Source: Candidatus Magasanikiibacteriota bacterium (lineage in GTDB: Bacteria; Patescibacteriota; Patescibacteriia; Magasanikbacterales; JACTTX01). Taken from it: 64,000 bases of DNA. Location of the stretch: contig JACTTX010000002.1 in assembly GCA_015661005.1 (NCBI GenBank), positions 856 to 64,855 on the forward strand, read 5' to 3'. Position 1 is the stretch's first letter; every line of letters begins with the position of its first letter. Both the position numbers and the translations under genes were made by a program. Below, in pieces: positions 24,901 through 35,622 of the stretch. The notes under the pieces are model-generated. The model was not told the DNA's origin. It worked only from the letters and a program-made list of their open reading frames with translations, and did not search any database.

Positions 24901-25179
24901 TTAGCCGAAATTGGGCGCATACAGAATCTTTGCCTTCTTTGGCGCTCGTGCCTCTACCTCGTCAATAATTGGACGCAAAGCATGAGCCGGAATCTCCGCG
25001 CCTGATTCAGCCAATTCTTCCAACCAAAGCTCAAGAACTTCATGCGCCATTTTTTTTGCTTCTTCAAAAGTTCTGCCAAAAGTTACGCAACCGGGCAGCG
25101 CCGGAAATGAAACGTTATACCCACCTTCTTCGGCCGGTTCAAAAACCGCAGGATATTGTAAAATTGTCTCTTTTTTCAT
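24901..25179 (-). CDS. HicB-like (UPF0150) antitoxin-fold protein, apparently orphan
   Basis: YPAVFEPAEEGGYNVSFPALPGCVTFGRTFEEAKKMAHEVLELWLEEL is the HicB N-terminal RNase-H-like fold. No HicA-like ORF is adjacent. Confidence 0.55.
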   Translation of the reverse strand: MKKETILQYPAVFEPAEEGGYNVSFPALPGCVTFGRTFEEAKKMAHEVLELWLEELAESGAEIPAHALRPIIDEVEARAPKKAKILYAPNFG

Positions 25180-25353
25180 ATATGCACAGTGTATAATGTT
25201 GCGCATAAAAAATCAAAAGACTTAGGCGATTTAACGCATGGTGTTTTTGCCGTGTGCGAAACTGGAAAAAATCTAATTTTATTTAGATTGCAATTTTTGT
25301 TGCAGATTTTTTAATTTTAGCGTACTATAATGACTAATTACTGAATTAACCAT

Positions 25354-26145
25354 GTGATAAAACCCTACTTCGATAAACCGAATTTCAAACTCTACCGCGC
25401 TAACAGCATTGACCTGCTGGCTGAACTCCCCGAGAACTCCGTGGATATGATTTTTGCCGACCCGCCCTATCTTCTATCAAACGGCGGTTTTACCGTTCAC
25501 GCCGGTAAAATGGTAAGTGTAAATAAAGGCGAATGGGATGTCAGCAATGGTCTAAAAAAAGATTTTGAATTTCAACTGACATGGATTGAAGCGTGCCGCC
25601 GAGTATTGAAACCTGGCGGCACCATTTGGATTAGTGGCACCTACCACTCAATTTACCAATGCGGCTTTGCGTTGCAGGTTAAACACTTTCATATTCTTAA
25701 TGATATTGCGTGGTTTAAACCAAATGCCTCGCCAAATTTAAGTTGCCGTTTTTTTACGGCTAGCCACGAGACACTTATTTGGGCTCGCAAAGAAAAGAAA
25801 GCCAAACACAAATTTAATTACGAGACAATGAAAAATGGCCATTGGCCAGATGATTTTTTGAAAAAACCCAATCTACAAATGCGCAGTGTGTGGGCTGTAT
25901 ATCCGCCAAAAAGTTCGGAAAAAATCCATGGGAAACATCCGACCCAAAAACCGATTGATTTACTCGTACGTATTATTATGGCCAGCACTGACAGAGGCGA
26001 TGTAATTTTAGATCCTTTTACCGGCTCATCAACGACAGGTTTAGCGGCTATGCTAAACGATCGAAAATTCATCGGGATTGATTTAGAAAAAAAATACCTG
26101 GACTTATCAATCAAACGTTACAACGACTTAAAAAAATTGATATGA
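25354..26145 (+). CDS. type II DNA methyltransferase, beta-class N6-adenine (or N4-cytosine) MTase
   Basis: Motif IV FADPPY at the N-terminus and the AdoMet motif ILDPFTGSSTTG near the C-terminus give the beta-class order. DPPY favours N6-adenine. Strongly AT-rich. Confidence 0.85.
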   Translation: MIKPYFDKPNFKLYRANSIDLLAELPENSVDMIFADPPYLLSNGGFTVHAGKMVSVNKGEWDVSNGLKKDFEFQLTWIEACRRVLKPGGTIWISGTYHSIYQCGFALQVKHFHILNDIAWFKPNASPNLSCRFFTASHETLIWARKEKKAKHKFNYETMKNGHWPDDFLKKPNLQMRSVWAVYPPKSSEKIHGKHPTQKPIDLLVRIIMASTDRGDVILDPFTGSSTTGLAAMLNDRKFIGIDLEKKYLDLSIKRYNDLKKLI

Positions 26146-26666
26146 AAAAACGCGGAAAAGGCGGGGCAAACACACAAACAGGATTAAGATTTGAAAGCAA
26201 AGTTGATTTTTTGACTTTTATAAAAAACCAAGAAAAGTACAGCGTCAAAGGCGCTGTTATTTTTTATGATGGCAAAAAGGTCGGTCTAACTTTTAAAAAA
26301 CACGGATTTTACAAATATCTGGGGGAGAAAGGAATTGATTACAAAGAAATAATTTCACAAAAATTGCTTCCGGATGACGCAATATTTGTTATTGCTAATA
26401 ACACCATGCACATTATTGAAATTAAATTCCAAGAAGGAAGCGGATCAACTGATGAAAAATTACAAACTTGCGATTTTAAAATAAAACAATACAGAAAATT
26501 GTTATCAAGATTGAATGCGGAGGTTAAATATATTTACATCTTGAACGAGTGGTTCAAAAAACCAGGGTACAAAGATGTATTGGACTACATCATCTCCGTT
26601 GAGGGTTGCGCCTACTATTTTAATTATCTGCCTTTGCAAAAAATTGGATTGCCAGTGCCAAAATAA
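26142..26666 (+). CDS. putative type II restriction endonuclease (PD-(D/E)XK)
   Basis: Start overlaps the MTase stop (ATGA). 174 aa with PDDAIFVIANNTMHIIEIK, a PD...EIK nuclease motif. Same AT-rich composition. Confidence 0.5.
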   Translation: MKKRGKGGANTQTGLRFESKVDFLTFIKNQEKYSVKGAVIFYDGKKVGLTFKKHGFYKYLGEKGIDYKEIISQKLLPDDAIFVIANNTMHIIEIKFQEGSGSTDEKLQTCDFKIKQYRKLLSRLNAEVKYIYILNEWFKKPGYKDVLDYIISVEGCAYYFNYLPLQKIGLPVPK

Positions 26667-27700: not shown

Positions 27701-28174
27701 TCACTCAAACCGAATTTCAATTTGATCCTTGTCTTTCATTTTATAATTTTCAAAGTCGCTGTTCGGCGCGCCGTTCACAAAAAATTTAACCGTGCCGTCC
27801 GACCCGTTGCACTGGTCAAAAATACAATCGCGATCAAACTTTTTTCCCCAGATGCCAAAAAATCGGCCGAGCTTAGTGTCACTTTCATGCACTGTGCCGC
27901 CGTATTCCAGATGAATAATGCCGTCGGCGGCATGGGTGTGTAGCGGACTTTCCACCGGCCCTAAACCCACTTCTTCCGGAATTTCTTGCGCTACACCTTT
28001 GATAGAGATGGCAAGATGCGGATGCCAGTGAATACCAGAACGAGAAATAATTTGATCCCCGCTCACAGTTGCTCCATTTTCTTGGGCGGCGTTTCCTTTA
28101 TGCGCCACCAGCCAACCAAAGCCGGCAATGACCGCAACGACGGCAATAATTTCCAAAATAATTTTCTTGTTCAT
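27701..28174 (-). CDS. hypothetical membrane-anchored protein with HWHPH motif
   Basis: N-terminal TM helix, then GIHWHPHLAI...HTHAADGIIHLEYGG His-rich motifs suggesting metal binding. Last gene of the BlaI-headed operon. Confidence 0.5.
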   Translation of the reverse strand: MNKKIILEIIAVVAVIAGFGWLVAHKGNAAQENGATVSGDQIISRSGIHWHPHLAISIKGVAQEIPEEVGLGPVESPLHTHAADGIIHLEYGGTVHESDTKLGRFFGIWGKKFDRDCIFDQCNGSDGTVKFFVNGAPNSDFENYKMKDKDQIEIRFE

Positions 28175-28176
28175 AG

Positions 28177-28785
28177 TTATTGGTGGTGAGAGTTATGTTC
28201 AGCGGCGGACATAGTGTTCGGCGCCAGTGGAACGGAAACGGCCGCTGTCCGCGCTGACGGCGTCGCGACGGTCATTTCTTTTTTCACTGTCGCGATCAAC
28301 CATTGATTATACACAAGCAAAACTATAATAACCGCGCCAACGGTTCTTGGCAACGTTAGCCAACGGCTTTGAAGAAGGATAGCGCCCAAAGAAAAAATTG
28401 CCGCGCCGTATCCAATCCCTTGAAACCAGAGACGCAGGCCGGTGATATCCGGCATCCACGGCAATGCCGCCAAGAGCAATCCGGCATTCAAGGTCAAAAG
28501 ATTTTTTGTGAGCGTCGTCCGGTGTCCGCGATAAGCCAAAAATCCCAGAAGCAAAAAAATTATACCAGCCACCCAAAAATATTTCTGATACGTTACGGCA
28601 AACATGAAGGGCAGAAAATTGAGCGTCAATCCAAGCGACGCCAAGACAGTTACAATCCCTAAACATACCGAATGACAAACCGACGGCGCACTGCCAAGCG
28701 AACTCAAAGCCGCGCAAAGAATCGACGAACGCTTGGCCGGCATTATAGCGGATGGTGTGGCGGGCATACTTTTTAACGCGCTCAA
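28177..28785 (-). CDS. hypothetical polytopic membrane protein
   Basis: 202 aa, about 5 hydrophobic helices, N-terminal Cys cluster (ILCAALSSLGSAPSVCHSVC). Confidence 0.5.
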   Translation of the reverse strand: MSALKSMPATPSAIMPAKRSSILCAALSSLGSAPSVCHSVCLGIVTVLASLGLTLNFLPFMFAVTYQKYFWVAGIIFLLLGFLAYRGHRTTLTKNLLTLNAGLLLAALPWMPDITGLRLWFQGIGYGAAIFSLGAILLQSRWLTLPRTVGAVIIVLLVYNQWLIATVKKEMTVATPSARTAAVSVPLAPNTMSAAEHNSHHQ

Positions 28786-28786
28786 A

Positions 28787-29125
28787 TTAACAGCCGCCGA
28801 CCATATCCGGCAGAGCGGCGTTGCTTCCCGCGGCGGCAGCCGGAGCGGCGGACGACGCGCCGCCGGTAGCCGCCTTCACGGTCAAAGCGCCGGCTTTGGA
28901 TTTCAAACTGTACAATTGCACCGTCTGAAAGATGGTGACAATCGCCAAAAGCGCCAAAACAATCACCTGCATGTTCAGTTTTGGAATGCTGATCGTTAAA
29001 GTGCGGGCGGCGCTTTGCGGCGCTGACGCATTTGGCGACGCGGCGGCAGGCGCGACTGGCGTGCCGGACGCGTTAGCCGCGGCTGGCGCTTGTCCCTCCG
29101 AAAACGCGTGATTAAAGTAGTCCAT
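28787..29125 (-). CDS. hypothetical small membrane protein ending in GGC
   Basis: 112 aa; Ala/Pro-rich with one TM helix and a C-terminal MVGGC. Confidence 0.4.
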   Translation of the reverse strand: MDYFNHAFSEGQAPAAANASGTPVAPAAASPNASAPQSAARTLTISIPKLNMQVIVLALLAIVTIFQTVQLYSLKSKAGALTVKAATGGASSAAPAAAAGSNAALPDMVGGC

Positions 29126-29150
29126 AAGATTGAATTAAAGAATTAATAAA

Positions 29151-30461
29151 TTAAAGTTTGAAGCCGTGCATACCGTCGCTCCCCGCGCCGCCGTGATTGG
29201 CATGACCCAAAACATTTCCTCGTCCGGTGGCCAAAAGATAATCTTCAATCACGCCTTTCGGATACCAAACACCTTTCCAACGCTGAAGCTCGCCTAAAAT
29301 TTCCTCATCGGAATATTTATCGCCGTAATTTTTCAAGAGATATTTGGCAATGCTCCTCCATGCTTGGGCATGGCGACAGCCGCAATTGTTGATGTGAGTA
29401 ACGCGCGTCGGTCCGCCACAGCAATAATCGCAAGTCATCGTGCTGATAATTTTTTCAAAGCGCGATTCCAACGCGCCGTCCAAAGTGATTTGCGATTCAT
29501 ATGACTGCCAGCGTTCCAATGATCCCTCTCCGTCATCAAAAGAAATTCCTTCCGGCGCGTAAAAAGGGACGCCAGTTGGCACCATCACCACCCGCGCGTC
29601 CGCCACCGTGTCTCCGGTGTTGGGCTCGGCCGGAACTTCGGTGATGGTGGGCCACGAACCCAAGGTGGTGGTGCGCCCGTCCGGATTTAATTTGGTGGAA
29701 ATAATTTGTTTGGCGGCCGCCGCTGATGGTTTAAACAGATTCGCAATGGCGGACAACCCGGTTGTTTTTAAACCCATCGCCAACGCGGCTTGTCCAATCA
29801 TAAAGTGATTGAAAGTGAGAACGATGATCAACACGGCTGTCACCATACTTTCAATGGAGAAAATTTTAGGCAAAACTTCCGCCGGGCGCGACGTATTTTC
29901 TTCAGACGCATTTTCTTCCATTGCTTTGTCCGGAATTTCGCAGTCGGAACATTCGGCGTTCATGGCTGCCGCCGATTTTTTTGCCGAATACATTGTTGTG
30001 AAAGCCAAAAAACCAATGCTCGCGATTTTAAACTCCAATCCTTTCAACGGAAAAGCGGCTACACCACTCGCCACGCCGAGGAGTTGCAATAAAAATGCGC
30101 CGCAGATCGGGCAAGCGGAACCGAACGCGCCAAAAATCGCGCCGAAACTACCAACGCTCCCGATTTTTATTTTTCCCAATCGCGAATGCCGCCAATGCCA
30201 AGCCGTAAACGCGGCGGCCGCGCCGAACAGCAAAATCATTATGACGGTGAGCAAAATATAAGTGACGGCGTAAGCCACGCTGAAACGCCCGAAATCTCCC
30301 GTTTTAGTCATGCTGATAAACTGCCCGATAGTGGTAACTTGAAGAAACAGCCAATAATTCAGATACGCAAACCCCAAAGCGGCAACCAACGCCAACCAGC
30401 GGTAAAACCGCGTTTTGAAAACCAAACGGCCGAAAGAAATTGTTTGTTTCAACAAATTCAT
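29151..30461 (-). CDS. Cys/His-rich polytopic membrane protein with CPIC motif and C-terminal putative metal-binding domain
   Basis: N-terminal half has about 6 TM helices with GSACPICGAFLLQLL. The C-terminal soluble part carries CDYCCGGP...NNCGCRHAQ and HANHGGAGSDGMHG. Confidence 0.5.
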   Translation of the reverse strand: MNLLKQTISFGRLVFKTRFYRWLALVAALGFAYLNYWLFLQVTTIGQFISMTKTGDFGRFSVAYAVTYILLTVIMILLFGAAAAFTAWHWRHSRLGKIKIGSVGSFGAIFGAFGSACPICGAFLLQLLGVASGVAAFPLKGLEFKIASIGFLAFTTMYSAKKSAAAMNAECSDCEIPDKAMEENASEENTSRPAEVLPKIFSIESMVTAVLIIVLTFNHFMIGQAALAMGLKTTGLSAIANLFKPSAAAAKQIISTKLNPDGRTTTLGSWPTITEVPAEPNTGDTVADARVVMVPTGVPFYAPEGISFDDGEGSLERWQSYESQITLDGALESRFEKIISTMTCDYCCGGPTRVTHINNCGCRHAQAWRSIAKYLLKNYGDKYSDEEILGELQRWKGVWYPKGVIEDYLLATGRGNVLGHANHGGAGSDGMHGFKL

Positions 30462-30462
30462 A

Positions 30463-31614
30463 TCACTGGGGTGTTCCGGTGGCGCTCAAACCTGCCGCCG
30501 CGGTCTTGGCGGCCGGACGAATCACCAAATTTTTAGTCAGGTCTTTATAGATAACATCGCCAATGGCCTCAATTTTTCTGAAAACGTAAGCGCCGTCTTT
30601 TTCCACGGTTCCGACCGCCGGCCAAACGCTTTTGAGCTGGTTGTACACATCTGCATCTTTAGAAAGAATAATTGTCGGCACGTTGACGATTTTATATTGA
30701 TTGACCAATCCTTTTCCTTGAGGCGAAGACACATCAACTACTTCACTGTTGGTCACCGCCACGCCCATACTGGATAAAAGGCCATTGTGTTTGGCAGGAT
30801 CATAACATTCATTACACGATTTGTCGGCGAGCATGGTCATTCGCAATTTGCCGAGAATTTTATTTTGCGCCAGATCAAAATATGGCGGGATCATTTGCCG
30901 GAAAACGTAAACGCCGTCGCTTTGCGTTTCACCGATAGTTAAATTTTTAAAGATGTCATAATACTTCACGTCCTCGGAAAGAATGATTTGCGGAAAAGCG
31001 GTAATTTTATATTTTGCCGTCAAACTTTTTCCATCTTCGGAAAAAGGCGACACGGTTTTGGTATCGGCAATAAAAATGCCGGCATTCTTCATTTGATTGA
31101 TGAGCTCGCTCGGCTGCGCACAGCCAACGCATAATTTAGGATCGTTCAAAATAGTAACATAAATTTTTCCGCGCTCGGCGCCGTCTTTGGGATCAATGTA
31201 GACCGGCGGGGTTTTGGTGAAAATAAAATTATTGTTAGCCAGTCGGCCGTTTTGCGCAATAAACCCCGCCAGCTTTTCATTGGTAACGTCTCCGCTCGCC
31301 ACAAAAGTTGGAAGCCGCTCCAGTCCAAAATCCGCCACCAGTTTTTTCCCTTCTTCGCTGTCAAAGATCAGCGTCTTTTCCGCCGTCACTTCCACCGGAA
31401 ACTTTTTAAACGCCGCCACGGCTTTCTGAATATCAAAACAATCTGGACAACTCGGCGTCGTCAATATCTGGAGTGTGATTTTTGCCGGTTGATTTTTTTC
31501 TTCGGCCACTTTGATTTGTTTGCCAATGGCGGTGTTAGTTTGAAAAGAAATAATAGCGCCAGACAGTGCGGCAAGAAAAGCAATCCCAAGTAGCGCGCGA
31601 TTGACAGTGATCAT
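30463..31614 (-). CDS. membrane-anchored protein with three tandem thioredoxin-like CxxC domains
   Basis: Three ~110-aa internal repeats, each with a CxxC (SCPDC, CVGC, CNEC) and a downstream cis-Pro-like motif (LPTFVAS, FPQIIL, VPTIIL). Confidence 0.7.
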   Translation of the reverse strand: MITVNRALLGIAFLAALSGAIISFQTNTAIGKQIKVAEEKNQPAKITLQILTTPSCPDCFDIQKAVAAFKKFPVEVTAEKTLIFDSEEGKKLVADFGLERLPTFVASGDVTNEKLAGFIAQNGRLANNNFIFTKTPPVYIDPKDGAERGKIYVTILNDPKLCVGCAQPSELINQMKNAGIFIADTKTVSPFSEDGKSLTAKYKITAFPQIILSEDVKYYDIFKNLTIGETQSDGVYVFRQMIPPYFDLAQNKILGKLRMTMLADKSCNECYDPAKHNGLLSSMGVAVTNSEVVDVSSPQGKGLVNQYKIVNVPTIILSKDADVYNQLKSVWPAVGTVEKDGAYVFRKIEAIGDVIYKDLTKNLVIRPAAKTAAAGLSATGTPQ

Positions 31615-32432
31615 AAATTATAGGGAATTTTGTGAATCGGATTTAAAATCATTGGCGACTCGGCGGATTGACTTTCCGAACACGGCAAAACGGCAACCGT
31701 TTGCGCTTTTGTTGACGGGACAAAGGCCGCCAGTAAAATCGCGAGTACCATAACGCTCACAAAAATCTTTGTCAAGGTGAGCGGCGCAAATTTCAATCCC
31801 CTGCCTTCCAAAACAGCGATGCGAATGGCAAGAGTTGACTGTTCGGCAAATCCAAAAAATGCGGCCGGTGCGGACGGACGTCCCGAGAGTTTAATCAGAG
31901 CCGAGACCAAAGAAATTTTTCCCTTCTCACCGTTTTGAGCGGCGGCATCAGCGGCCACTTCTCTGGCGGCCAGCCATCTTTTTTCAAAATCCGCCACGAT
32001 TGGCAAAAACCAAAAAGCGGTGCGTGCGGCGTGAAGCAAAGCGCCCATCAGCGGATCATATGATTGCTGATGATGCCGCTCATGAGATAAAACCGCCAGC
32101 AGTTCCGCCTCCGTCAGAACGCTCGCCGCCGAGGTACTCAAATAAATTTGCGGTTTAAAAAATCCAACGCAAAAACATTTTGATTGATCGGACGCAAAAA
32201 TCCGAATATTATTTATTTGCTTGTTTTCAATCAAAGCGGCAAGACGCGGCGGAACCGCCGCCGACGCCAACAATGAGAGTGAGCGCAATAATTTTCCGGT
32301 GGCCAGAACTTGGCGAACCAAAGAAACAATAAAAATTCCTAAAACCGACAATCCGGCCGCCCAACCAACGCCATGCCAAAAATTGCCATGCGTAATCGCG
32401 GAAAAAAAATTGTCACAGCGAGTGATCGCCAT
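31611..32432 (-). CDS. BlaR1/MecR1-like M56 peptidase-domain membrane protein (no sensor domain)
   Basis: HERHHQQ is an HExxH in an M56-like 4-TM context, and the gene lies immediately downstream of a BlaI-family repressor. At 273 aa it lacks a C-terminal sensor domain. Confidence 0.6.
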   Translation of the reverse strand: MAITRCDNFFSAITHGNFWHGVGWAAGLSVLGIFIVSLVRQVLATGKLLRSLSLLASAAVPPRLAALIENKQINNIRIFASDQSKCFCVGFFKPQIYLSTSAASVLTEAELLAVLSHERHHQQSYDPLMGALLHAARTAFWFLPIVADFEKRWLAAREVAADAAAQNGEKGKISLVSALIKLSGRPSAPAAFFGFAEQSTLAIRIAVLEGRGLKFAPLTLTKIFVSVMVLAILLAAFVPSTKAQTVAVLPCSESQSAESPMILNPIHKIPYNL

Positions 32433-32433
32433 A

Positions 32434-32826
32434 TTAACTCCGGCCGCGTTTTAAATCCGCCAACAACTTTTTCAACTTCTTGCGATCAACTTTGTCCGTC
32501 TCTTCCAAAAAACAAGCAATGGCAACCTCTCCGAATTCTTTTCTAATCCGTCCGAGCGTTTCTCCGGCCAGCGTCCGATAAAATTCTTGCCGCGTCAGAC
32601 GCGGACAAAAAACATGCTGACCGGCGCGAATATTTTTTTTGAGCACGCCTTTCTTAACCAGCCGATTCATAATGGTCATGATGGTGGTATAGGCGACATC
32701 AATTTTTTTATGCAAATGATCAACGACGTCCCGCACCGAACCCCCCTCCGGACGCGACCACAAAATATCCAGGATGTCTTTTTCCCGTTCGCCAAGCAAG
32801 CGTCCAACATGAGACGGTGTCCGCAT
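32434..32826 (-). CDS. BlaI/MecI/CopY-family transcriptional repressor
   Basis: LGEREKDILDILWSRPEGGSVRDVVDHL...YTTIMTIMNRLVKKGVLKK winged helix of the penicillinase-repressor family. No C-terminal Cys cluster, so BlaI-like rather than CopY-like. Confidence 0.8.
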   Translation of the reverse strand: MRTPSHVGRLLGEREKDILDILWSRPEGGSVRDVVDHLHKKIDVAYTTIMTIMNRLVKKGVLKKNIRAGQHVFCPRLTRQEFYRTLAGETLGRIRKEFGEVAIACFLEETDKVDRKKLKKLLADLKRGRS

Positions 32827-32837
32827 ATAAAAATTTA

Positions 32838-32857
32838 TCTACTACATTATGTAGAAG
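32838..32857. promoter_or_regulatory. putative BlaI-family operator (palindrome CTACA-TTA-TGTAG)
   Basis: The 13-bp perfect dyad contains TACA/TGTA half-sites like bla/mec/cop boxes. It sits 12 bp upstream of the blaI-like start and shares the 11-mer TACTACATTAT with 33311..33325. Confidence 0.5.
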
Positions 32858-32920
32858 ACAAGTCCAACGGTCAACCGGTTTTATCCACAGCGCAAAATTT
32901 TACCTCAACCATTCCCGTTT

Positions 32921-33301
32921 TCATCTGACCCACTCCCGCCACGATTTTGGCCAACCGCGTAGCAACAACAAGGCCAGAGGCGCGCCCCAGTTGGCCCATC
33001 TTTCCACAAAATCCCAAAACGATTCGCCAACCAACGGACGTAAAATGGCGGTCCAGAAACCCCAAACGGCGGCCCAAGCCAGCACACCGCGCACCGGCTT
33101 CACCAAAATAATCAAAGCCACAATCAGATCCATAATACCAATCGCCAACAAAATTTTGCCGGCCAAGACGGCGTCTGTCTGCAAAATTTCCTGAATCCAT
33201 TTGATCCACTGCGCTTTGCCTTGAATGGCAAAGACGCCGTGTCCGACGAATTCTCCAAAAATCGCGAGCCGCAAGGCCCAATGAGCAAGTTTATTTTCCA
33301 T
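32921..33301 (-). CDS. DoxX-like small membrane protein
   Basis: 126 aa with 3-4 TM helices and DoxX-like topology; weak assignment. Confidence 0.4.
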   Translation of the reverse strand: MENKLAHWALRLAIFGEFVGHGVFAIQGKAQWIKWIQEILQTDAVLAGKILLAIGIMDLIVALIILVKPVRGVLAWAAVWGFWTAILRPLVGESFWDFVERWANWGAPLALLLLRGWPKSWREWVR

Positions 33302-33310
33302 ATATTTATT

Positions 33311-33325
33311 TTACTACATTATACC
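33311..33325. promoter_or_regulatory. second TACTACATTAT box (operator half-site)
   Basis: ATTTATTTTACTACATTATACC lies 10 bp upstream of the DoxX-like start and shares ATTTAT..TACTACATTAT with the blaI operator region. Confidence 0.4.
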
Positions 33326-33329
33326 ACGA

Positions 33330-33716
33330 TTACTTGACGCCCTCCGGAAGAACGCAACCGCTTTCCCGCGCCAATCCGCTTAATCCTAATTCCCCCGCTA
33401 ACTTGCGACCGTCGGAAAAGATCCAGGTCGGATATTTTTCCACACCCTTATCAAGGCATGTTTGGGGATTATTCGGACACTCCACGTACTTCACAAATTG
33501 GAACGCGTCCCCGAAAGCCGCTTTTTCATTCTGGCAATGCGGACACCAGGCGGCGCCGTACATCGTGATGTCTTTTGTGGCAAGGCATTGGGCAAAAGAA
33601 TCCAGCGGCGCGGTGGCTGATTTTTTTTCCGACCATCTTGATATCGTCACAATTCCCGCAACAATGAGCGCGACTACCCCCGCCGAAATTAATAATGATT
33701 TCATATCATACAGCAA
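33330..33716 (-). CDS. membrane-anchored thioredoxin-like protein (VKOR-associated Trx-like type)
   Basis: MYGAAWCPHCQNEKAAFGDAF...YVEC closely matches the Trx-like domain usually fused to bacterial VKOR homologues. Confidence 0.7.
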   Translation of the reverse strand: MLYDMKSLLISAGVVALIVAGIVTISRWSEKKSATAPLDSFAQCLATKDITMYGAAWCPHCQNEKAAFGDAFQFVKYVECPNNPQTCLDKGVEKYPTWIFSDGRKLAGELGLSGLARESGCVLPEGVK

Positions 33717-33884: not shown

Positions 33885-34340
33885 TCAACAACATTGTTCC
33901 ATCTTCTTCTCCAGATCTTCCACGCGCCGCTGACTCCCGCCGGACTTACCAACACGCAGGCATATGGCGGCCGTCACGAGCATCACCGTCAAAGCCAAAA
34001 GCAGAATCCACCACCAACTTTGAGTCACGCCATAAACGGCCGTGAAGCCGGCCGGAATAAAAATCATTTTCCAAGCGAGCGGCTTAATGTGCGGCGCCAG
34101 ATATTTCTCCGCTTGATAAGCAATGCCGACAACGGATCCGCCCATCAGAATTGTCGGCACAAAAAGATCAATCGTGAATCCCGCCGGATGCCAGCCGCCA
34201 AAATAAAGCGCCAACATCCAAATCCAAGTTCCGGCCGCACCGGCGCAAATTGGACACAAACGCTTGCCGGTCGCGCGGTTAAGCAGCGCCGCCAGCCCGG
34301 CAATCGTGTAAAGGGAAATTAAAGCGATGAGAATATTCAT
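33885..34340 (-). CDS. DsbB/VKOR-like candidate: small polytopic membrane protein with CPIC motif
   Basis: 151 aa, about 4-5 TM helices, LCPICAGAAG at a TM boundary, C-terminal QCC. Neighbours a Trx-like protein of the VKOR-partner type and CcdA. Confidence 0.4.
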   Translation of the reverse strand: MNILIALISLYTIAGLAALLNRATGKRLCPICAGAAGTWIWMLALYFGGWHPAGFTIDLFVPTILMGGSVVGIAYQAEKYLAPHIKPLAWKMIFIPAGFTAVYGVTQSWWWILLLALTVMLVTAAICLRVGKSGGSQRRVEDLEKKMEQCC

Positions 34341-35119
34341 AACAGAAAAATTATTACACCAAGAATGACCATCAACAAGCCGTCGGCCCAGCGCATTTTT
34401 CCGCGGACGCGCGCCTGCCAGACCTGAACTTTTTCAATGACCGCGCTTTTACTCGCGATTACTAAAATAATCACGAGCGGCAGAATAAAGATTAAATTGT
34501 AGTAGAGAAGATACGCCAAACCGCGCAGGAAGGTGGCGTTGTCATGCAAGAGTCCGAGCACCATGAGATACGGGCCGCCAGTGCAGGGAAATTCGCAAAG
34601 CCCAACGAGCGCTCCCAAAAGAAAAGCCGTTGGCGCGGAAGCGCGATCCATAAGCGCGGCCATGCGATGATGAACGCCTTGCGGAATACGGAGCTTGATT
34701 GGGAACGAAGGAAAGTATTCATTCACCAAATTCACGAGACCAAGTACAATCAAAATCCCGGCGCCGATCTTGGCCATGAAATGCGGCGTGTTGAAAAGAT
34801 GCAGGGTCTGCAAAATCCCCAGCCCAATCAAGATGTAGACCGCAAAAATCCCAAAAATGTAAGTGCCGCCAATAGCCAGAATCCGCCCGCGCAATTTTCC
34901 GATGCTTGCCAAAAAGGCAATCGTCAGAATCAAGATGGAAAAAGCGCAGGGGTTGATGCTGTCAACAACGGCCGCCACGGTAACGAGCGGCAGGAGCAAT
35001 TGTCCGCCATTGCTGATTTTCCACAAAACACCGGCCCCGGCCGCGCCGGAAAAACCGATAATTGATACAACAACAAACGCCGCCGACACTACAATAATGA
35101 ACAACCATTTTTTTTTCAT
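34337..35119 (-). CDS. ccdA: cytochrome c-type biogenesis protein CcdA / DsbD transmembrane-domain family
   Basis: Conserved Cys in TM1 (DSINPCAF) and TM4 (LCEFPCTGGPYL); 260 aa. Confidence 0.8.
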   Translation of the reverse strand: MKKKWLFIIVVSAAFVVVSIIGFSGAAGAGVLWKISNGGQLLLPLVTVAAVVDSINPCAFSILILTIAFLASIGKLRGRILAIGGTYIFGIFAVYILIGLGILQTLHLFNTPHFMAKIGAGILIVLGLVNLVNEYFPSFPIKLRIPQGVHHRMAALMDRASAPTAFLLGALVGLCEFPCTGGPYLMVLGLLHDNATFLRGLAYLLYYNLIFILPLVIILVIASKSAVIEKVQVWQARVRGKMRWADGLLMVILGVIIFLL

Positions 35120-35127
35120 AATCGCGA

Positions 35128-35622
35128 TTAAGGCGTGACCGTGGCCGTAAAATTCAACTCCAGCGGCCGACCGTTCGGATTATCCAAGTAAACGATGCGG
35201 GAGATTTTTCCAACACCGGCCGGTCCGTGCGCCGCCGGATCAAACGTTACTTCCACGGTGGCCTCTTCACCCGCTTCTATAACTTCATTGATGGTCGGAA
35301 CCGGCAGATGTCCGGGCATACCAACCGGTCCGAAAGTTTTTCCGTTATGCATGACTTTCGCCTCCGTGCACATGCAGGACGTATAGAACTTCACGATTTT
35401 CGCCGACTCACTGCCGTTGTTTTTAACTTTGAATTCATGGGTAACTTTCCCTTTGGCCATGGAAACCGTGCCGAAGTCATAAGAATTTTCCAGTGCGGTC
35501 AAAACGCCTTTGGCGTCAATGGTTTGTTTTTCCTCCGGCGCCGCGCCGGATCGGGCAAACCAAATCAGGGCTCCGGCAATGACGGCAATCGCCGCCACGT
35601 TGATAATCATTTTTGAATTCAT
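35128..35622 (-). CDS. DUF1573 domain-containing membrane-anchored protein
   Basis: N-terminal TM helix, then an Ig-like domain with the CMC motif (FYTSCMCTEAK) typical of DUF1573. Confidence 0.6.
   Translation of the reverse strand: MNSKMIINVAAIAVIAGALIWFARSGAAPEEKQTIDAKGVLTALENSYDFGTVSMAKGKVTHEFKVKNNGSESAKIVKFYTSCMCTEAKVMHNGKTFGPVGMPGHLPVPTINEVIEAGEEATVEVTFDPAAHGPAGVGKISRIVYLDNPNGRPLELNFTATVTP

What the first reader, a model, noticed from the sequence alone, without database searches (positions are those of the whole stretch)
27701..32857. BlaI/BlaR1-like regulated seven-gene envelope thiol/metal operon with a triple-thioredoxin protein
Seven minus-strand genes are packed with overlaps of 4 bp or less:
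- a BlaI-family repressor;
- an M56 peptidase-domain BlaR1-like protein with no sensor domain;
- a membrane-anchored protein with three tandem CxxC thioredoxin folds;
- a 436-aa membrane protein with a CPIC motif in a TM helix and a C-terminal CDYCCGGP...NNCGC / His-rich domain;
- two further Cys-containing membrane proteins;
- a HWHPH...HTH protein.

A perfect 13-bp dyad CTACA-TTA-TGTAG, resembling TACA/TGTA bla/mec/cop boxes, sits just upstream of the repressor gene. The combination points to a proteolytically de-repressed extracytoplasmic disulfide or metal (Cu/Hg-like) stress system of unusual composition, and none of the structural genes is a textbook Dsb, Cop or Mer protein.
Basis: partly seen in the sequence, partly recalled or inferred. 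Interest (0 to 1): 0.65.

Follow-up and report, generated by a model that had tools for sequence, protein, structure and literature searches.

The report
BlaI/M56-controlled envelope cysteine-relay operon
An operon in a tiny Candidatus Magasanikbacteria genome pairs a protease-and-repressor switch with four uncharacterised cysteine- and histidine-rich membrane proteins and a triple thioredoxin; the same module recurs in ultra-small bacteria and archaea, usually beside copper and thiol-redox genes, so it looks like an undescribed envelope thiol/copper system.

Summary
Seven minus-strand genes lie at 27701-32826, tightly packed apart from a 25-nt gap. The unique dyad CTACA-N3-TGTAG (32842-32854) overlaps the -10 box of a TTGACC-17-CATAAT promoter.

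- **Regulators:** g1 is a Penicillinase_R repressor. g2 is an M56 protease with HERHH, no penicillin-binding domain, and cysteines in both short external segments.
- **g3:** three internally repeated CxxC/cis-Pro thioredoxin-like domains.
- **g4, g5, g6, g7:** no match in Pfam or NCBIfam. g4 and g7 also match no solved structure by sequence.

Across 80 related loci, g3, g4 and g5 travel together in CPR bacteria (38/39) and in DPANN archaea (36/41). In CPR, BlaI plus M56 sit upstream in 24 of 30 testable loci, and the dyad is conserved. g5 ends in an invariant MVGGC carboxy terminus.

Neighbours are enriched for CcdA-like, Trx, DsbA and AhpC genes, and for copper genes (P1B-ATPase, cupredoxins, multicopper oxidase, YHS).

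Most likely this is a proteolytically de-repressed envelope cysteine relay that responds to copper or thiol stress. That function is inferred. Whether the cargo is electrons or Cu(I) is unresolved. The regulatory logic is known (PetRP and CenIR types); the structural core is new.

The parts
32842..32854 (-). Operator-like dyad CTACA-TAA-TGTAG (6-1-6), the predicted g1 (BlaI-like) binding site
   Evidence: Unique in the window. It overlaps the -10 hexamer. ACTACA-N3-TGTAGT-type dyads sit in the same place upstream of BlaI homologues in at least 12 CPR loci, and TTACA-N5-7-(T/C)GTAA dyads sit beside TATA-like boxes in DPANN loci.
32846..32874 (-). Sigma-70-like promoter TTGACC-17 nt-CATAAT of the operon
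   Evidence: Consensus scan, 10 of 12 matches. The same TTGAC(-35)/dyad-embedded -10 layout is seen in L007, L008, L013, L027 and L033.
32434..32826 (-). g1: BlaI/MecI/CopY-family winged-helix repressor (130 aa), without a CopY metal-binding tail
   Evidence: PF03965 E 2.2e-21, 76.8 bits. CopY_TcrY and BlaI NCBIfam models score below their cut-offs. The only cysteines are C74 and C105, so there is no CxCxxxxCxC. The FG..A.A.F segment is conserved across homologues.
31611..32432 (-). g2: M56 (BlaR1-type) zinc metalloprotease without a sensor domain (273 aa). It has HERHH 117-121, two TM helices, and external Cys6 and Cys251.
   Evidence: PF05569 E 3.1e-19 and PF01435 E 3e-6. blaR1_generic scores 34.7 bits against a cut-off of 400. 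TM helices are at 18-36 and 220-238 with a 35-aa tail. All CPR homologues carry C or CxC before the TM helix that precedes the protease domain, and 1-3 Cys in the tail.
30463..31614 (-). g3: N-terminally anchored protein with three tandem thioredoxin-like CxxC domains (CPDC, CVGC, CNEC)
   Evidence: Weak Trx and PDO hits. Internal repeats with E 5e-10 and 2e-18. Three CxxC motifs and three cis-Pro residues are conserved in 67-74 of 76 aligned sequences. Single N-terminal TM helix at 4-22.
29151..30461 (-). g4: 5-TM protein (436 aa). It has CPxCG in TM3, a cytoplasmic CxxC (171/174), an external Cys/His domain (C344, C347, C348, C360, C362, H364) and a His-rich tail.
   Evidence: 191 homologues, all hypothetical and without Pfam domains. 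The Cys and His residues are invariant. The AF2 model gives pLDDT 82-97 for the C-domain. Positive-inside topology was assessed over 26 sequences. No Pfam, PDB-sequence or Foldseek relative was found.
28787..29125 (-). g5: single-pass membrane protein with a low-complexity linker and an invariant C-terminal LPxMVGGC-COOH (a tethered cysteine)
   Evidence: All 69 distinct homologues from CPR and DPANN end in MVGGC, except one that ends in MQGGC. The same tail is fused to g4-type ectodomains in some archaea.
28177..28785 (-). g6: polytopic membrane protein with CHxxC in the first TM helix
   Evidence: Family-conserved GS.Q(V/I)CH..C and MPLLFL motifs. Fused to g7 in L072. No Pfam family. The NCBI start gives 196 aa.
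27701..28174 (-). g7: membrane-anchored external beta-grasp domain with invariant H49, H51, H79, H81, H88 and C122
32921..35622 (-). Adjacent same-strand thiol-redox cluster, probably a separate transcription unit: DUF1573 (35128-35622), CcdA-like (34337-35119), 151-aa CPIC membrane protein (33885-34340), anchored CPHC thioredoxin (33330-33716), 126-aa membrane protein (32921-33301)
   Evidence: Pfam hits. Its adjacency to the BlaI operon recurs in L016 and L030. CcdA-like genes lie within 7 kb of g4 in 37 of 80 loci.

Best explanation
This is an autoregulated operon, de-repressed by proteolysis, that builds a cysteine relay at the cell envelope. It most likely answers copper and/or thiol-oxidising stress.

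**Regulation (inferred from family membership and footprinting).** The g1 dimer binds the CTACA-N3-TGTAG dyad that overlaps the -10 box and shuts off the promoter. g2 is an M56 protease whose only external parts are two short cysteine-bearing segments. It senses a thiol-reactive signal, either Cu(I)/Cu(II) or oxidation. It then cleaves g1 and the whole operon is transcribed.

**Effector (inferred from anatomy).** g4 is a five-helix membrane conduit carrying three successive cysteine stations:
- a cytoplasmic CxxC;
- a mid-membrane CPxCG;
- an external CxxCC...CxC-H domain.

g5 supplies a cysteine on a flexible arm tethered to the membrane (LPxMVGGC-COOH). g3 supplies three external thioredoxin-like CxxC domains. 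Together they would move reducing equivalents, and possibly Cu(I), between the cytoplasm and the cell surface. This would keep surface cysteines reduced or correctly paired and would bind copper. That is the role the Scs and DsbD/CcdA systems play in other bacteria.

g6 (CHxxC in a TM helix) and g7 (His-rich beta-grasp domain) are accessory metal- or electron-handling partners.

**Shown versus inferred.** Shown here: gene families, motifs and their conservation, synteny across CPR and DPANN, operator conservation, predicted topology, and genomic context. Inferred: the signal, the cleavage, the direction of flow and the cargo.
For: - **Regulators and operator:**
- **Linkage:** g3+g4+g5 are linked in 38/39 CPR and 36/41 DPANN loci. 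BlaI+M56 lie upstream in 24/30 testable CPR loci and 11/26 testable DPANN loci. BlaI-like genes or a membrane-anchored wHTH regulator occur in 27/41 DPANN loci.
- **g4 residues and topology:** nine invariant Cys plus His in g4. The family-wide positive-inside pattern gives N-in, five TM helices, C171/C174 inside and the C-domain outside. Proteins carrying only the N-domain end just after the CxxC.
- **Tethered cysteine:** the MVGGC terminus is invariant. The same tail is fused to g4-type ectodomains.
- **g3:** three repeated CxxC/cis-Pro domains.
- **Fusions to electron carriers:** the g4 N-domain to cytochrome c and g7 to a cupredoxin.
- **Context within 7 kb:** copper-type genes in 22/39 CPR and 8/41 DPANN loci; extra thiol-redox genes in 23/39 and 18/41. 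The variant locus L087 has BlaI, a PCYCGC protein, a g4 C-domain protein and a triple Trx next to a cupredoxin, a FixG-like protein, an M56 protease and DsbA genes.
- **Precedents:** PetR/PetP is a BlaI/M56 pair without a sensor domain whose proteolysis needs copper. Most BlaR homologues lack a beta-lactam domain. Caulobacter ScsC is a Trx-fold isomerase that binds Cu(I) (title and abstract).
Against: - There are no experimental data, and no expression data were examined.
- In this window no copper gene lies beside the operon; the neighbours are thiol-redox genes only.
- A CcdA-like reductant importer is a frequent neighbour (37/80 loci). That would make a second reductive conduit partly redundant and leaves room for g4 being an oxidase or a metal path.
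- The TM Cys pair plus cytoplasmic Cys pair resembles Mer metal importers more than it resembles DsbD.
- The fourth helix of g4 is only moderately hydrophobic (mean KD 1.3), so the topology rests on charge bias and the AF2 helices.
- The g4 membrane part is modelled at low confidence (pLDDT 40-60 in places).
- The cytochrome c and cupredoxin fusions are single instances.
Confidence: 0.5

Rival explanations
1. Thiophilic-metal trafficking, Mer-like in logic. The external Cys/His domain and the tethered cysteine capture Cu(I) or another soft metal. They pass it to the mid-membrane CPxCG pair and then to the cytoplasmic CxxC, or the metal moves in the reverse direction to load exported cupredoxins. 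g3 only keeps the ligand cysteines reduced, and g7 is a His-based metallochaperone.
For: - The TM Cys pair plus cytoplasmic Cys pair architecture matches what I recall of MerT, MerC and MerF (own knowledge).
- g7 is His-rich, g4 has a His-rich tail, and the g5 tail carries Met plus Cys.
- Neighbours include P1B-ATPase, cupredoxins, multicopper oxidase, YHS, DUF2933, YtkA/FixH-like and FixG-like genes.
- The regulator family includes the copper sensors CopY and PetR.
Against: - No homology to Mer, Cop or Ctr families.
- Three catalytic-looking Trx domains are universal partners, which is excessive for simple ligand upkeep.
- No copper gene lies next to the operon in this window.
- No cytoplasmic acceptor is encoded in the module.
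Confidence: 0.22
2. A quinone-independent machine for oxidative protein folding. g3 oxidises secreted proteins such as pilins and adhesins. g5 and g4 re-oxidise it. The electrons leave through g6/g7 and small copper or haem carriers, rather than through the quinones used by DsbB and VKOR. This would suit lineages that lack respiratory chains.
For: - CPR and DPANN almost entirely lack oxygen reductases and electron-transport chains.
- Fusions to cytochrome c and cupredoxin exist.
- A separate CcdA-like reductive pathway is often next door, which suggests the two have opposite directions.
- g3 is PDI/PDO-like, with several active domains.
Against: - Control by a stress-type repressor/protease switch is unusual for a housekeeping folding pathway.
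- A cytoplasmic CxxC station is not needed for an oxidase.
- Some CPR do carry VKOR next to MdbA-like oxidoreductases.
- The fusions are single cases.
Confidence: 0.15
3. A sulfur-species carrier. The terminal cysteine on the Gly-rich arm carries covalently bound sulfur (persulfide or thiosulfonate), as SoxY does. The membrane domain then relays this sulfur into cells that cannot assimilate sulfate.
For: The C-terminal GGC and GGGCG(V/A) arms resemble the SoxY GGCGG arm (the SoxY motif is from my own knowledge). One relative is fused to cytochrome c.
Against: No Sox, rhodanese, TusA or DsrE genes appear in the neighbour census. The context is dominated by copper and thiol-disulfide genes.
Confidence: 0.05

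Closest known systems
PetR/PetP of Synechocystis (BlaI/CopY-family repressor plus sensor-less M56 protease; copper-dependent proteolysis)
   Same: Adjacent, tightly coupled repressor and M56 genes. The protease has HExxH and no penicillin-binding domain. The repressor has no CopY Cys tail. Both have a copper-related context.
   Different: The PetR operator is GACN5GTC, not TACA/TGTA. PetP has four TM helices. The PetRP regulon is plastocyanin and cytochrome c6, not a cysteine-rich membrane module. Copper responsiveness is not shown here.
BlaI/BlaR1 and MecI/MecR1 of staphylococci and Bacillus
   Same: The same two protein families and a TACA/TGTA-type dyad overlapping the promoter. Autoregulation is likely.
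   Different: There is no extracellular transpeptidase-like sensor (a 35-aa tail instead). There is no beta-lactamase or PBP2a gene. The equivalog models score far below their cut-offs (34.7 against 400 bits).
CenI/CenR of Clostridioides difficile
   Same: A BlaIR-family pair without a beta-lactam domain that controls cell-envelope genes.
   Different: The regulon is different (an exported protein and the Cwp6 hydrolase), and the CenIR signal is also unknown.
ScsABCD (suppressor of copper sensitivity) and DsbD/CcdA with Trx-like partners
   Same: A membrane protein relays through cysteine pairs to membrane-tethered or secreted Trx-fold proteins. The link to copper stress is shared, and ScsC binds Cu(I). 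CcdA-like genes are frequent neighbours.
   Different: g4 has no sequence or fold match to DsbD_TM. Its cysteines form a CPxC within one helix plus a cytoplasmic CxxC, not one Cys in each of two helices. g5, g6 and g7 have no Scs or Dsb counterpart.
MerT/MerC/MerF with MerP (mercury uptake)
   Same: The logic is an external thiol ligand, then a TM Cys pair, then a cytoplasmic Cys pair (my own knowledge of the Mer proteins; g4 anatomy).
   Different: No homology and no MerA or MerR. The partner is a triple thioredoxin.
SoxY swinging-arm cysteine
   Same: A single reactive Cys at the end of a Gly-rich C-terminal arm.
   Different: SoxY is a soluble Ig-like protein ending in GGCGG. g5 is a single-pass membrane protein with a disordered linker. 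There is no Sox context.
PCYCGC domain proteins (PF13798, function unknown)
   Same: A cysteine-cluster motif of similar pattern (CxYCGC...H against CxYCCG...CGCxH). A PCYCGC gene sits inside the variant module in L087/L088.
   Different: No member of the g4 family reaches E 0.05 against PF13798. The relationship is contextual and motif-level only.

Membership tests
BlaI/MecI/CopY repressors (Penicillinase_R, PF03965) | Winged-helix domain matching the family model above its curated cut-off | tested here: met
   76.8 bits against a cut-off of 22.6, residues 11-123
BlaI/MecI/CopY repressors (Penicillinase_R, PF03965) | TACA/TGTA-type inverted repeat at its own promoter | tested here: met
   CTACA-N3-TGTAG overlaps the -10 box and is conserved in related loci. 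Binding itself was not tested.
CopY subtype (direct copper sensor) | C-terminal CxCxxxxCxC metal site; equivalog score | tested here: not met
   The only cysteines are C74 and C105. TIGR02698 scores 42.9 bits against a cut-off of 121.95.
BlaR1/MecR1 beta-lactam sensor-transducers | M56 zinc protease domain with HExxH between TM helices | tested here: met
   PF05569 scores 69.7 bits against 31; HERHH at 117-121
BlaR1/MecR1 beta-lactam sensor-transducers | C-terminal extracellular penicillin-binding (transpeptidase-like) sensor domain | tested here: not met
   Only 35 residues follow the last TM helix. blaR1_generic scores 34.7 bits against a cut-off of 400, and the match covers positions 110-249 of the 585-position model.
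BlaR1/MecR1 beta-lactam sensor-transducers | Signal-dependent cleavage of the cognate repressor | not testable with these tools
   Needs biochemistry. A conserved Phe-containing segment is present in g1 homologues, but it was not aligned to BlaI here.
Thioredoxin superfamily (g3) | CxxC active site followed about 40-45 residues later by a cis-Pro, in a Trx-fold domain | tested here: met
   Three CxxC motifs and three Pro residues are conserved in 67-74 of 76 aligned sequences. The three units are mutually homologous.
Thioredoxin superfamily (g3) | Score above the curated cut-off of a Trx family model; Trx fold in a structural model | tested here: inconclusive
   Thioredoxin_2 scores 22 against 27, Thioredoxin 21.1 against 23.5, and PDO TIGR02187 31 against 185.
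DsbD/CcdA (DsbD_TM) for g4 | Homology to the family; one essential Cys in each of two TM helices | tested here: not met
   No Pfam or NCBIfam hit for any of the 26 members. The cysteines form a CPxC in a single helix.
DsbB / VKOR for g4 or g6 | Homology to the family; 4-TM bundle with a CxxC and a loop Cys pair; quinone cofactor | tested here: not met
   No hits. Foldseek against the PDB gives no match at E <= 0.001. Quinone use is not testable.
MerT/MerC/MerF for the g4 N-domain | Homology to the Mer transporter families | tested here: not met
   No Pfam or NCBIfam hit. The resemblance is architectural only.
PCYCGC (PF13798) for the g4 C-domain | Match to the family model | tested here: not met
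   None of the 26 members matches at E <= 0.05. A true PCYCGC protein is a neighbour in L087.
DUF3105 for g7 | Sequence similarity to DUF3105 proteins of related loci | tested here: not met
   BLASTP E = 10 against the DUF3105 protein of L001. No Pfam hit in 18 members.
DUF4430 / transcobalamin beta-domain-like beta-grasp for g7 | Fold similarity | tested here: inconclusive

The most novel reading that the evidence does not exclude
g3, g4 and g5 (with g6 and g7) form a previously unrecognised class of transmembrane cysteine relay shared by CPR bacteria and DPANN archaea. Its parts are:
- a 4/5-TM CPxCG conduit with a cytoplasmic CxxC;
- a Cys/His ectodomain of unknown fold;
- a membrane-tethered 'swinging' C-terminal cysteine (MVGGC-COOH);
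- a triple thioredoxin.

On this reading it works without quinones and is unrelated to DsbB, VKOR, DsbD, CcdA or Mer. It couples surface thiol chemistry to copper in organisms that have no respiratory chain.
Probability: 0.45. Interest if true: 0.85.

Novelty: new variant of a known kind. Interest (0 to 1): 0.72.

Why it matters
CPR bacteria and DPANN archaea make up a large share of microbial diversity. They live attached to other cells and largely lack electron-transport chains. How they manage the redox state of their surface proteins, and how they handle copper, is essentially unknown.

This module is one of the few multi-gene cassettes shared across both radiations, and four of its families have no annotation at all. 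If it is a cysteine relay, it would be a new solution to a basic problem: moving thiol redox equivalents or soft metals across a membrane. It offers a clear experimental handle in an operator, a protease switch and invariant cysteines.

It also adds a well-defined case to the growing evidence that BlaI/BlaR-type switches sense signals other than beta-lactams.

Tried and rejected
1. **g7 as a divergent DUF3105.** WWE3 and Daviesbacteria loci have a DUF3105 gene in the same relative position. BLASTP gave E = 10 and there was no Pfam hit, so this was rejected.
3. **Family and structure matches for g4 and g7.** Pfam scans of every member of the g4 and g7 alignments, and PDB sequence-profile searches, found nothing credible.
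4. **CopY-type direct metal sensing by g1.** Rejected, because there is no Cys tail.
5. **The dyad as a chance palindrome.** On window statistics alone it is only marginal. This was rejected because of its conservation in position and sequence upstream of BlaI homologues.
6. **A second operator upstream of the 126-aa ORF.** Only a half-site is present (ATAATGTAGTA, 33312-33322), and there is no second match to the dyad even allowing one mismatch.
7. **RNA elements in the window.** There are no Rfam families and no tRNAs.
8. **Literature.** Six full-text searches found no description of the module.
9. **Separate census of g6 and g7.** Their profile HMMs were cross-contaminated by a g6-g7 fusion ORF (L072), so the counts are reported merged.

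Full report
**Source and anatomy.** The g4 and g7 proteins are 100% identical to hypothetical proteins HW383_106 and HW383_103 of a Candidatus Magasanikbacteria MAG, on a 73.9-kb contig. The window therefore comes from a CPR/Patescibacteria genome.

Seven minus-strand ORFs occupy 27701-32826. The junctions are a 1-nt gap, a 4-nt overlap, a 1-nt gap, a 25-nt gap, a 1-nt gap (19 nt if the NCBI start of g6 is used) and a 2-nt gap.

Immediately upstream, a consensus scan finds TTGACC-17-CATAAT at 32874-32846. The dyad CTACATAATGTAG (32842-32854) overlaps that -10 hexamer and ends 15 nt before the g1 ATG. It is the only match in 64 kb, even with one mismatch. With 0.25 sites expected and 21 of 100 shuffles giving at least one, it is not compelling on its own.

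**Regulators.** g1 matches Penicillinase_R at 76.8 bits against a cut-off of 22.6. It scores below the equivalog cut-offs for CopY, BlaI and MecI. Its only cysteines are C74 and C105, so it has no CopY metal-binding tail.

g2 matches Peptidase_M56 at 69.7 bits against 31 and has HERHH at 117-121. It has just two predicted TM helices (18-36 and 220-238) and a 35-residue tail. The match to blaR1_generic covers only the protease part, at 34.7 bits against a cut-off of 400. It is therefore a sensor-less M56 protease.

By the BlaR1 topology (my own knowledge: the protease domain is cytoplasmic, between an out-to-in and an in-to-out helix), residues 1-17 and 239-273 face outward. They carry C6 and C251. 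In every CPR homologue aligned, the segment before the TM helix that precedes the protease domain carries a C or CxC, and the tail carries one to three cysteines, for example FLCSxDxxCxxxCH. I infer a thiol-based sensor, either redox or metal. This is not shown.

**Phylogenetic footprint of the operator.** I extracted the 150 nt upstream of BlaI homologues in related loci. ACTACA-N3-TGTAGT-type dyads lie between a TTGAC -35 element and the start codon in L007, L008, L010, L013, L016, L024, L027, L032, L033 and L040. Two further loci, L030 and L035, have one farther upstream. In the promoter-proximal cases the -10 hexamer lies inside the dyad. A relaxed ACTAC-N5-(G/T)TAGT version occurs in the WWE3 and Daviesbacteria group.

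In DPANN loci the divergently transcribed BlaI-like gene is preceded by TTACA-N5-7-(T/C)GTAA, immediately next to a TATA-like TTTAAA box. This conservation in sequence and position is the real support for the operator.

**Structural genes.**
- **g3** has an N-terminal anchor and three units that are homologous to one another (E 5e-10 and 2e-18). Each unit has a CxxC and a downstream cis-Pro, conserved in 67-74 of 76 aligned sequences. Some Uhrbacteria have only two units. The Trx and PDO models hit, but below their cut-offs.
- **g4** has 191 homologues at E <= 1e-3 in the word-indexed search. Those that carry a source name are called hypothetical, and none of the 120 listed has a Pfam domain. 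Nine Cys residues are invariant (C117, C120, C171, C174, C344, C347, C348, C360, C362), as are H364, H420, H423 and H432.
- **g4 model.** AF2 gives five long helices, with a break at the CPIC motif, and a confidently modelled C-domain with pLDDT 82-97.
- **g4 topology.** Lys+Arg counts over 26 homologues are: N-terminus 3.3, loop 1 0.9, loop 2 3.0, loop 3 0.2, loop 4 5.9, and 1.2 after TM5. This supports N-in, the CxxC at 171/174 in the cytoplasm, CPxCG within TM3, and the Cys/His domain outside. Proteins that carry only the N-domain end right after the CxxC (P0225), which fits this topology.
- **g5** is the most striking protein. It has a basic stretch, one TM helix and an Ala/Ser/Gly linker. 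All 69 distinct homologues from both domains of life end in MVGGC, except one that ends in MQGGC.
- **g6** is a polytopic membrane protein with a family-conserved (Q)(V/I)CHxxC in its first helix and an MPLLFL motif. In L072 it is fused to g7.

**Distribution and synteny.** A scan of one genome per species returned 143 relatives. The 80 kept come from records titled as Patescibacteria lineages (Uhr-, Davies-, Levy-, Roizman- and Pacebacteria, WWE3 and others) and as DPANN archaea (Woese-, Pace-, Nano- and Aenigmatarchaeota). Some TPA records carry implausible labels such as 'uncultured Gammaproteobacteria'. My CPR/DPANN split follows record titles, similarity and gene order, not a phylogeny.

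Profile HMMs run against six-frame ORFs give these counts:

| Group | Distinct loci | g3 near g4 | g5 near g4 | Loci with >=2.5 kb upstream | BlaI-like | BlaI-like + M56 | g6/g7 |
|---|---|---|---|---|---|---|---|
| CPR | 39 | 39 | 38 | 30 | 25 | 24 | 25 |
| DPANN | 41 | 36 | 40 | 26 | 12 | 11 (divergent) | 30 |

A further 13 DPANN loci have a co-directional membrane-anchored wHTH gene (DUF7343/MarR-like, with weak Penicillinase_R similarity) in the same slot. Either kind of regulator is present in 27 of 41 DPANN loci.

The usual CPR order is BlaI-M56-g5-g3-g4. The window and its closest relatives (L006, L007, L016) place g5 after g4. The conserved unit is therefore regulator + g3 + g4 + g5.

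**Modularity.** An exhaustive profile search found 1448 representatives at E <= 1e-3 and 436 at E <= 1e-10. The N-terminal membrane domain and the C-terminal ectodomain often occur as separate proteins. Informative variants:
- The MVGGC tail is fused directly to g4-type ectodomains (P0196 and several DPANN g4 homologues).
- A sister ectodomain (YRPCC.NS....DC.HG...FWFP) ends in GGGCG(V/A)-COOH. It is fused to the g4 N-domain or encoded next to it (P0154, P0181, L086, L038).
- The g4 N-domain is fused to a cytochrome c domain (P0270).
- A g7 domain is fused to a type-1 cupredoxin (P0124).
- In L087/L088 the order is BlaI, a true PCYCGC (PF13798) protein, a g4 C-domain with a VGGC tail, a 72-aa protein with a VGGC tail, and a triple Trx. 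These lie next to a cupredoxin/COX2-like gene, a Fer4_5 (FixG-like) gene, an M56 protease and two DsbA genes.

The tethered terminal cysteine is therefore an integral element that works with the Cys/His ectodomain.

**Context.** I clustered the neighbours lying within 7 kb of g4.

| Neighbour | CPR loci | DPANN loci |
|---|---|---|
| CcdA-like | 22 | 15 |
| Trx | 13 | 4 |
| AhpC/Redoxin | 10 | 1 |
| DsbA-like | 2 | 5 |
| P1B-ATPase with HMBD | 9 | 3 |
| Cupredoxins (two clusters) | 9 | 4 |
| Multicopper oxidase | 3 | 1 |
| YHS | 3 | 0 |
| DUF2933 | 4 | 0 |
| YtkA/FixH-like | 4 | 14 |
| Met-rich SHOCT proteins | 3 | 5 |
| ICMT | 8 | 0 |

At least one copper-type gene is present in 22 of 39 CPR loci and 8 of 41 DPANN loci. 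For genomes of about 1 Mb this is far more than chance proximity would give (my estimate; not formally tested).

In the window itself the neighbours are thiol-redox only: DUF1573, a CcdA-like gene, a 151-aa CPIC membrane protein and a CPHC thioredoxin. The flanks are housekeeping genes.

**Mechanism.** My best reading is a BlaI/M56 switch controlling an envelope cysteine relay tied to copper and thiol stress (confidence 0.5). The regulatory half follows from family membership, the conserved operator and two precedents. PetR/PetP is a sensor-less pair whose proteolysis needs copper. CenIR, together with the survey in that paper, shows that most BlaR homologues lack a beta-lactam domain.

The effector half rests on anatomy: three cysteine stations across the membrane in g4, a tethered cysteine, and three external Trx domains.

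What the relay carries is unresolved. Reducing equivalents would make it Scs- or DsbD-like. Cu(I) would make it Mer-like in logic (0.22). It might instead run in the oxidising direction as a quinone-free folding machine (0.15), and a sulfur-carrier role is a remote possibility (0.05). The frequent CcdA-like neighbour and the Mer-like Cys geometry are the main reasons for not putting more weight on a simple reductive relay.

**Comparison and novelty.** The regulatory logic is a known kind. g3 belongs to a known superfamily. g4, g5, g6 and g7 have no characterised relatives. They failed the membership tests for DsbD/CcdA, DsbB/VKOR, Mer, PCYCGC and DUF3105. Six literature searches found no description of the module. 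The nearest published statement is that CPR are enriched in MdbA-like oxidoreductases, sometimes next to VKOR.

I rate the finding a new variant of a known kind: an envelope thiol/metal homeostasis system under a BlaIR-type switch. I give 0.45 probability that the core is a categorically new relay.

**Limits.** There are no experimental or expression data. The census uses six-frame ORFs and HMMs built from the same loci. The g6 and g7 counts are merged. The g4 membrane part is modelled at low confidence. The C-domain was never searched on its own against structure libraries. The cytochrome c and cupredoxin fusions are single sequences from short contigs.

Noticed in passing
window 33885-34340 (-): A 151-aa membrane protein with a CPIC motif ('LCPICAGAAG') and a C-terminal ...EQCC. 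It has no Pfam family and sits between a CcdA-like gene and a CPHC thioredoxin. The motif echoes the CPICGA of g4. Homologues lie next to the BlaI module in L016 and L030.
   Followed up: partly
window 33312-33322 (-), upstream of the 126-aa ORF 32921-33301: The string TATAATGTAGTA repeats the right half of the operator together with a -10-like box (compare CATAATGTAGTA at the g1 promoter). The left arm is missing. It may be a half-site or a shared promoter feature.
   Followed up: partly
L059, L063-L066, L070, L073-L075, L078, L084 (DPANN loci), directly upstream of g4: Where BlaI/M56 is absent, a co-directional membrane-anchored winged-helix protein occupies the regulator slot. It is about 166 aa, matches DUF7343/MarR and weakly Penicillinase_R, and has an external 'C..SEC' motif. 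It may be a one-component alternative to the two-protein switch.
   Followed up: partly
L002, L013, L014, L028, L031, L036, L038, L039 (CPR loci): An ICMT-family (isoprenylcysteine carboxyl methyltransferase) gene recurs within 7 kb of the module. Because g5 ends in a free C-terminal cysteine, modification of that residue is worth considering.
   Followed up: no
16 CPR loci, e.g. L026 10241-10774 and the following ORF; L016 564-1046: A recurrent gene pair of unknown function: a roughly 150-aa membrane protein with 'SCCAHY', followed by a roughly 150-aa anchored protein with 'GGHH(R)EG'. Neither has a Pfam match. They usually sit between DUF3105 and AhpC/CcdA-like genes.
   Followed up: no
L086 1337-2107; L038 12918-13943; P0154, P0181: A sister ectodomain family ('YRPCC.NS....DC.HG', 'FWFP') ends in GGGCG(V/A)-COOH. 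It is fused to the g4-type membrane domain or encoded next to it. In L086 it follows a fusion of cytochrome c with the g4 N-domain.
   Followed up: partly
window 25354-26666 (+) and 24901-25206 (-): An N4/N6 DNA methyltransferase (PF01555, E 7e-56) overlaps by 4 nt a 174-aa ORF with a weak PD-(D/E)XK match. This is a probable type II restriction-modification pair. It lies next to a HicB-like antitoxin, between the ribosomal str-operon genes and the envelope island.
   Followed up: no
many g7 homologues, e.g. P0142, P0122, L048, L058, L067: The g7 domain is often preceded, on the cytoplasmic side of its TM anchor, by a C2H2-like zinc-finger motif (C.(I/E)C...F.....L..H...KH). The window's g7 lacks it.
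   Followed up: no
L010, L011, L015, L017, L020, L024, L027, L028, L044, L050, L052 and others (record titles): Several TPA 'binchicken' MAG records that carry the module are titled 'uncultured Gammaproteobacteria' or 'Methanosarcinales'. Their gene content and similarity are those of CPR and DPANN, so the titles look like mislabels.
   Followed up: no
window 1-64000: There are no tRNA genes and no Rfam family at gathering threshold anywhere in the 64-kb window.
   Followed up: yes
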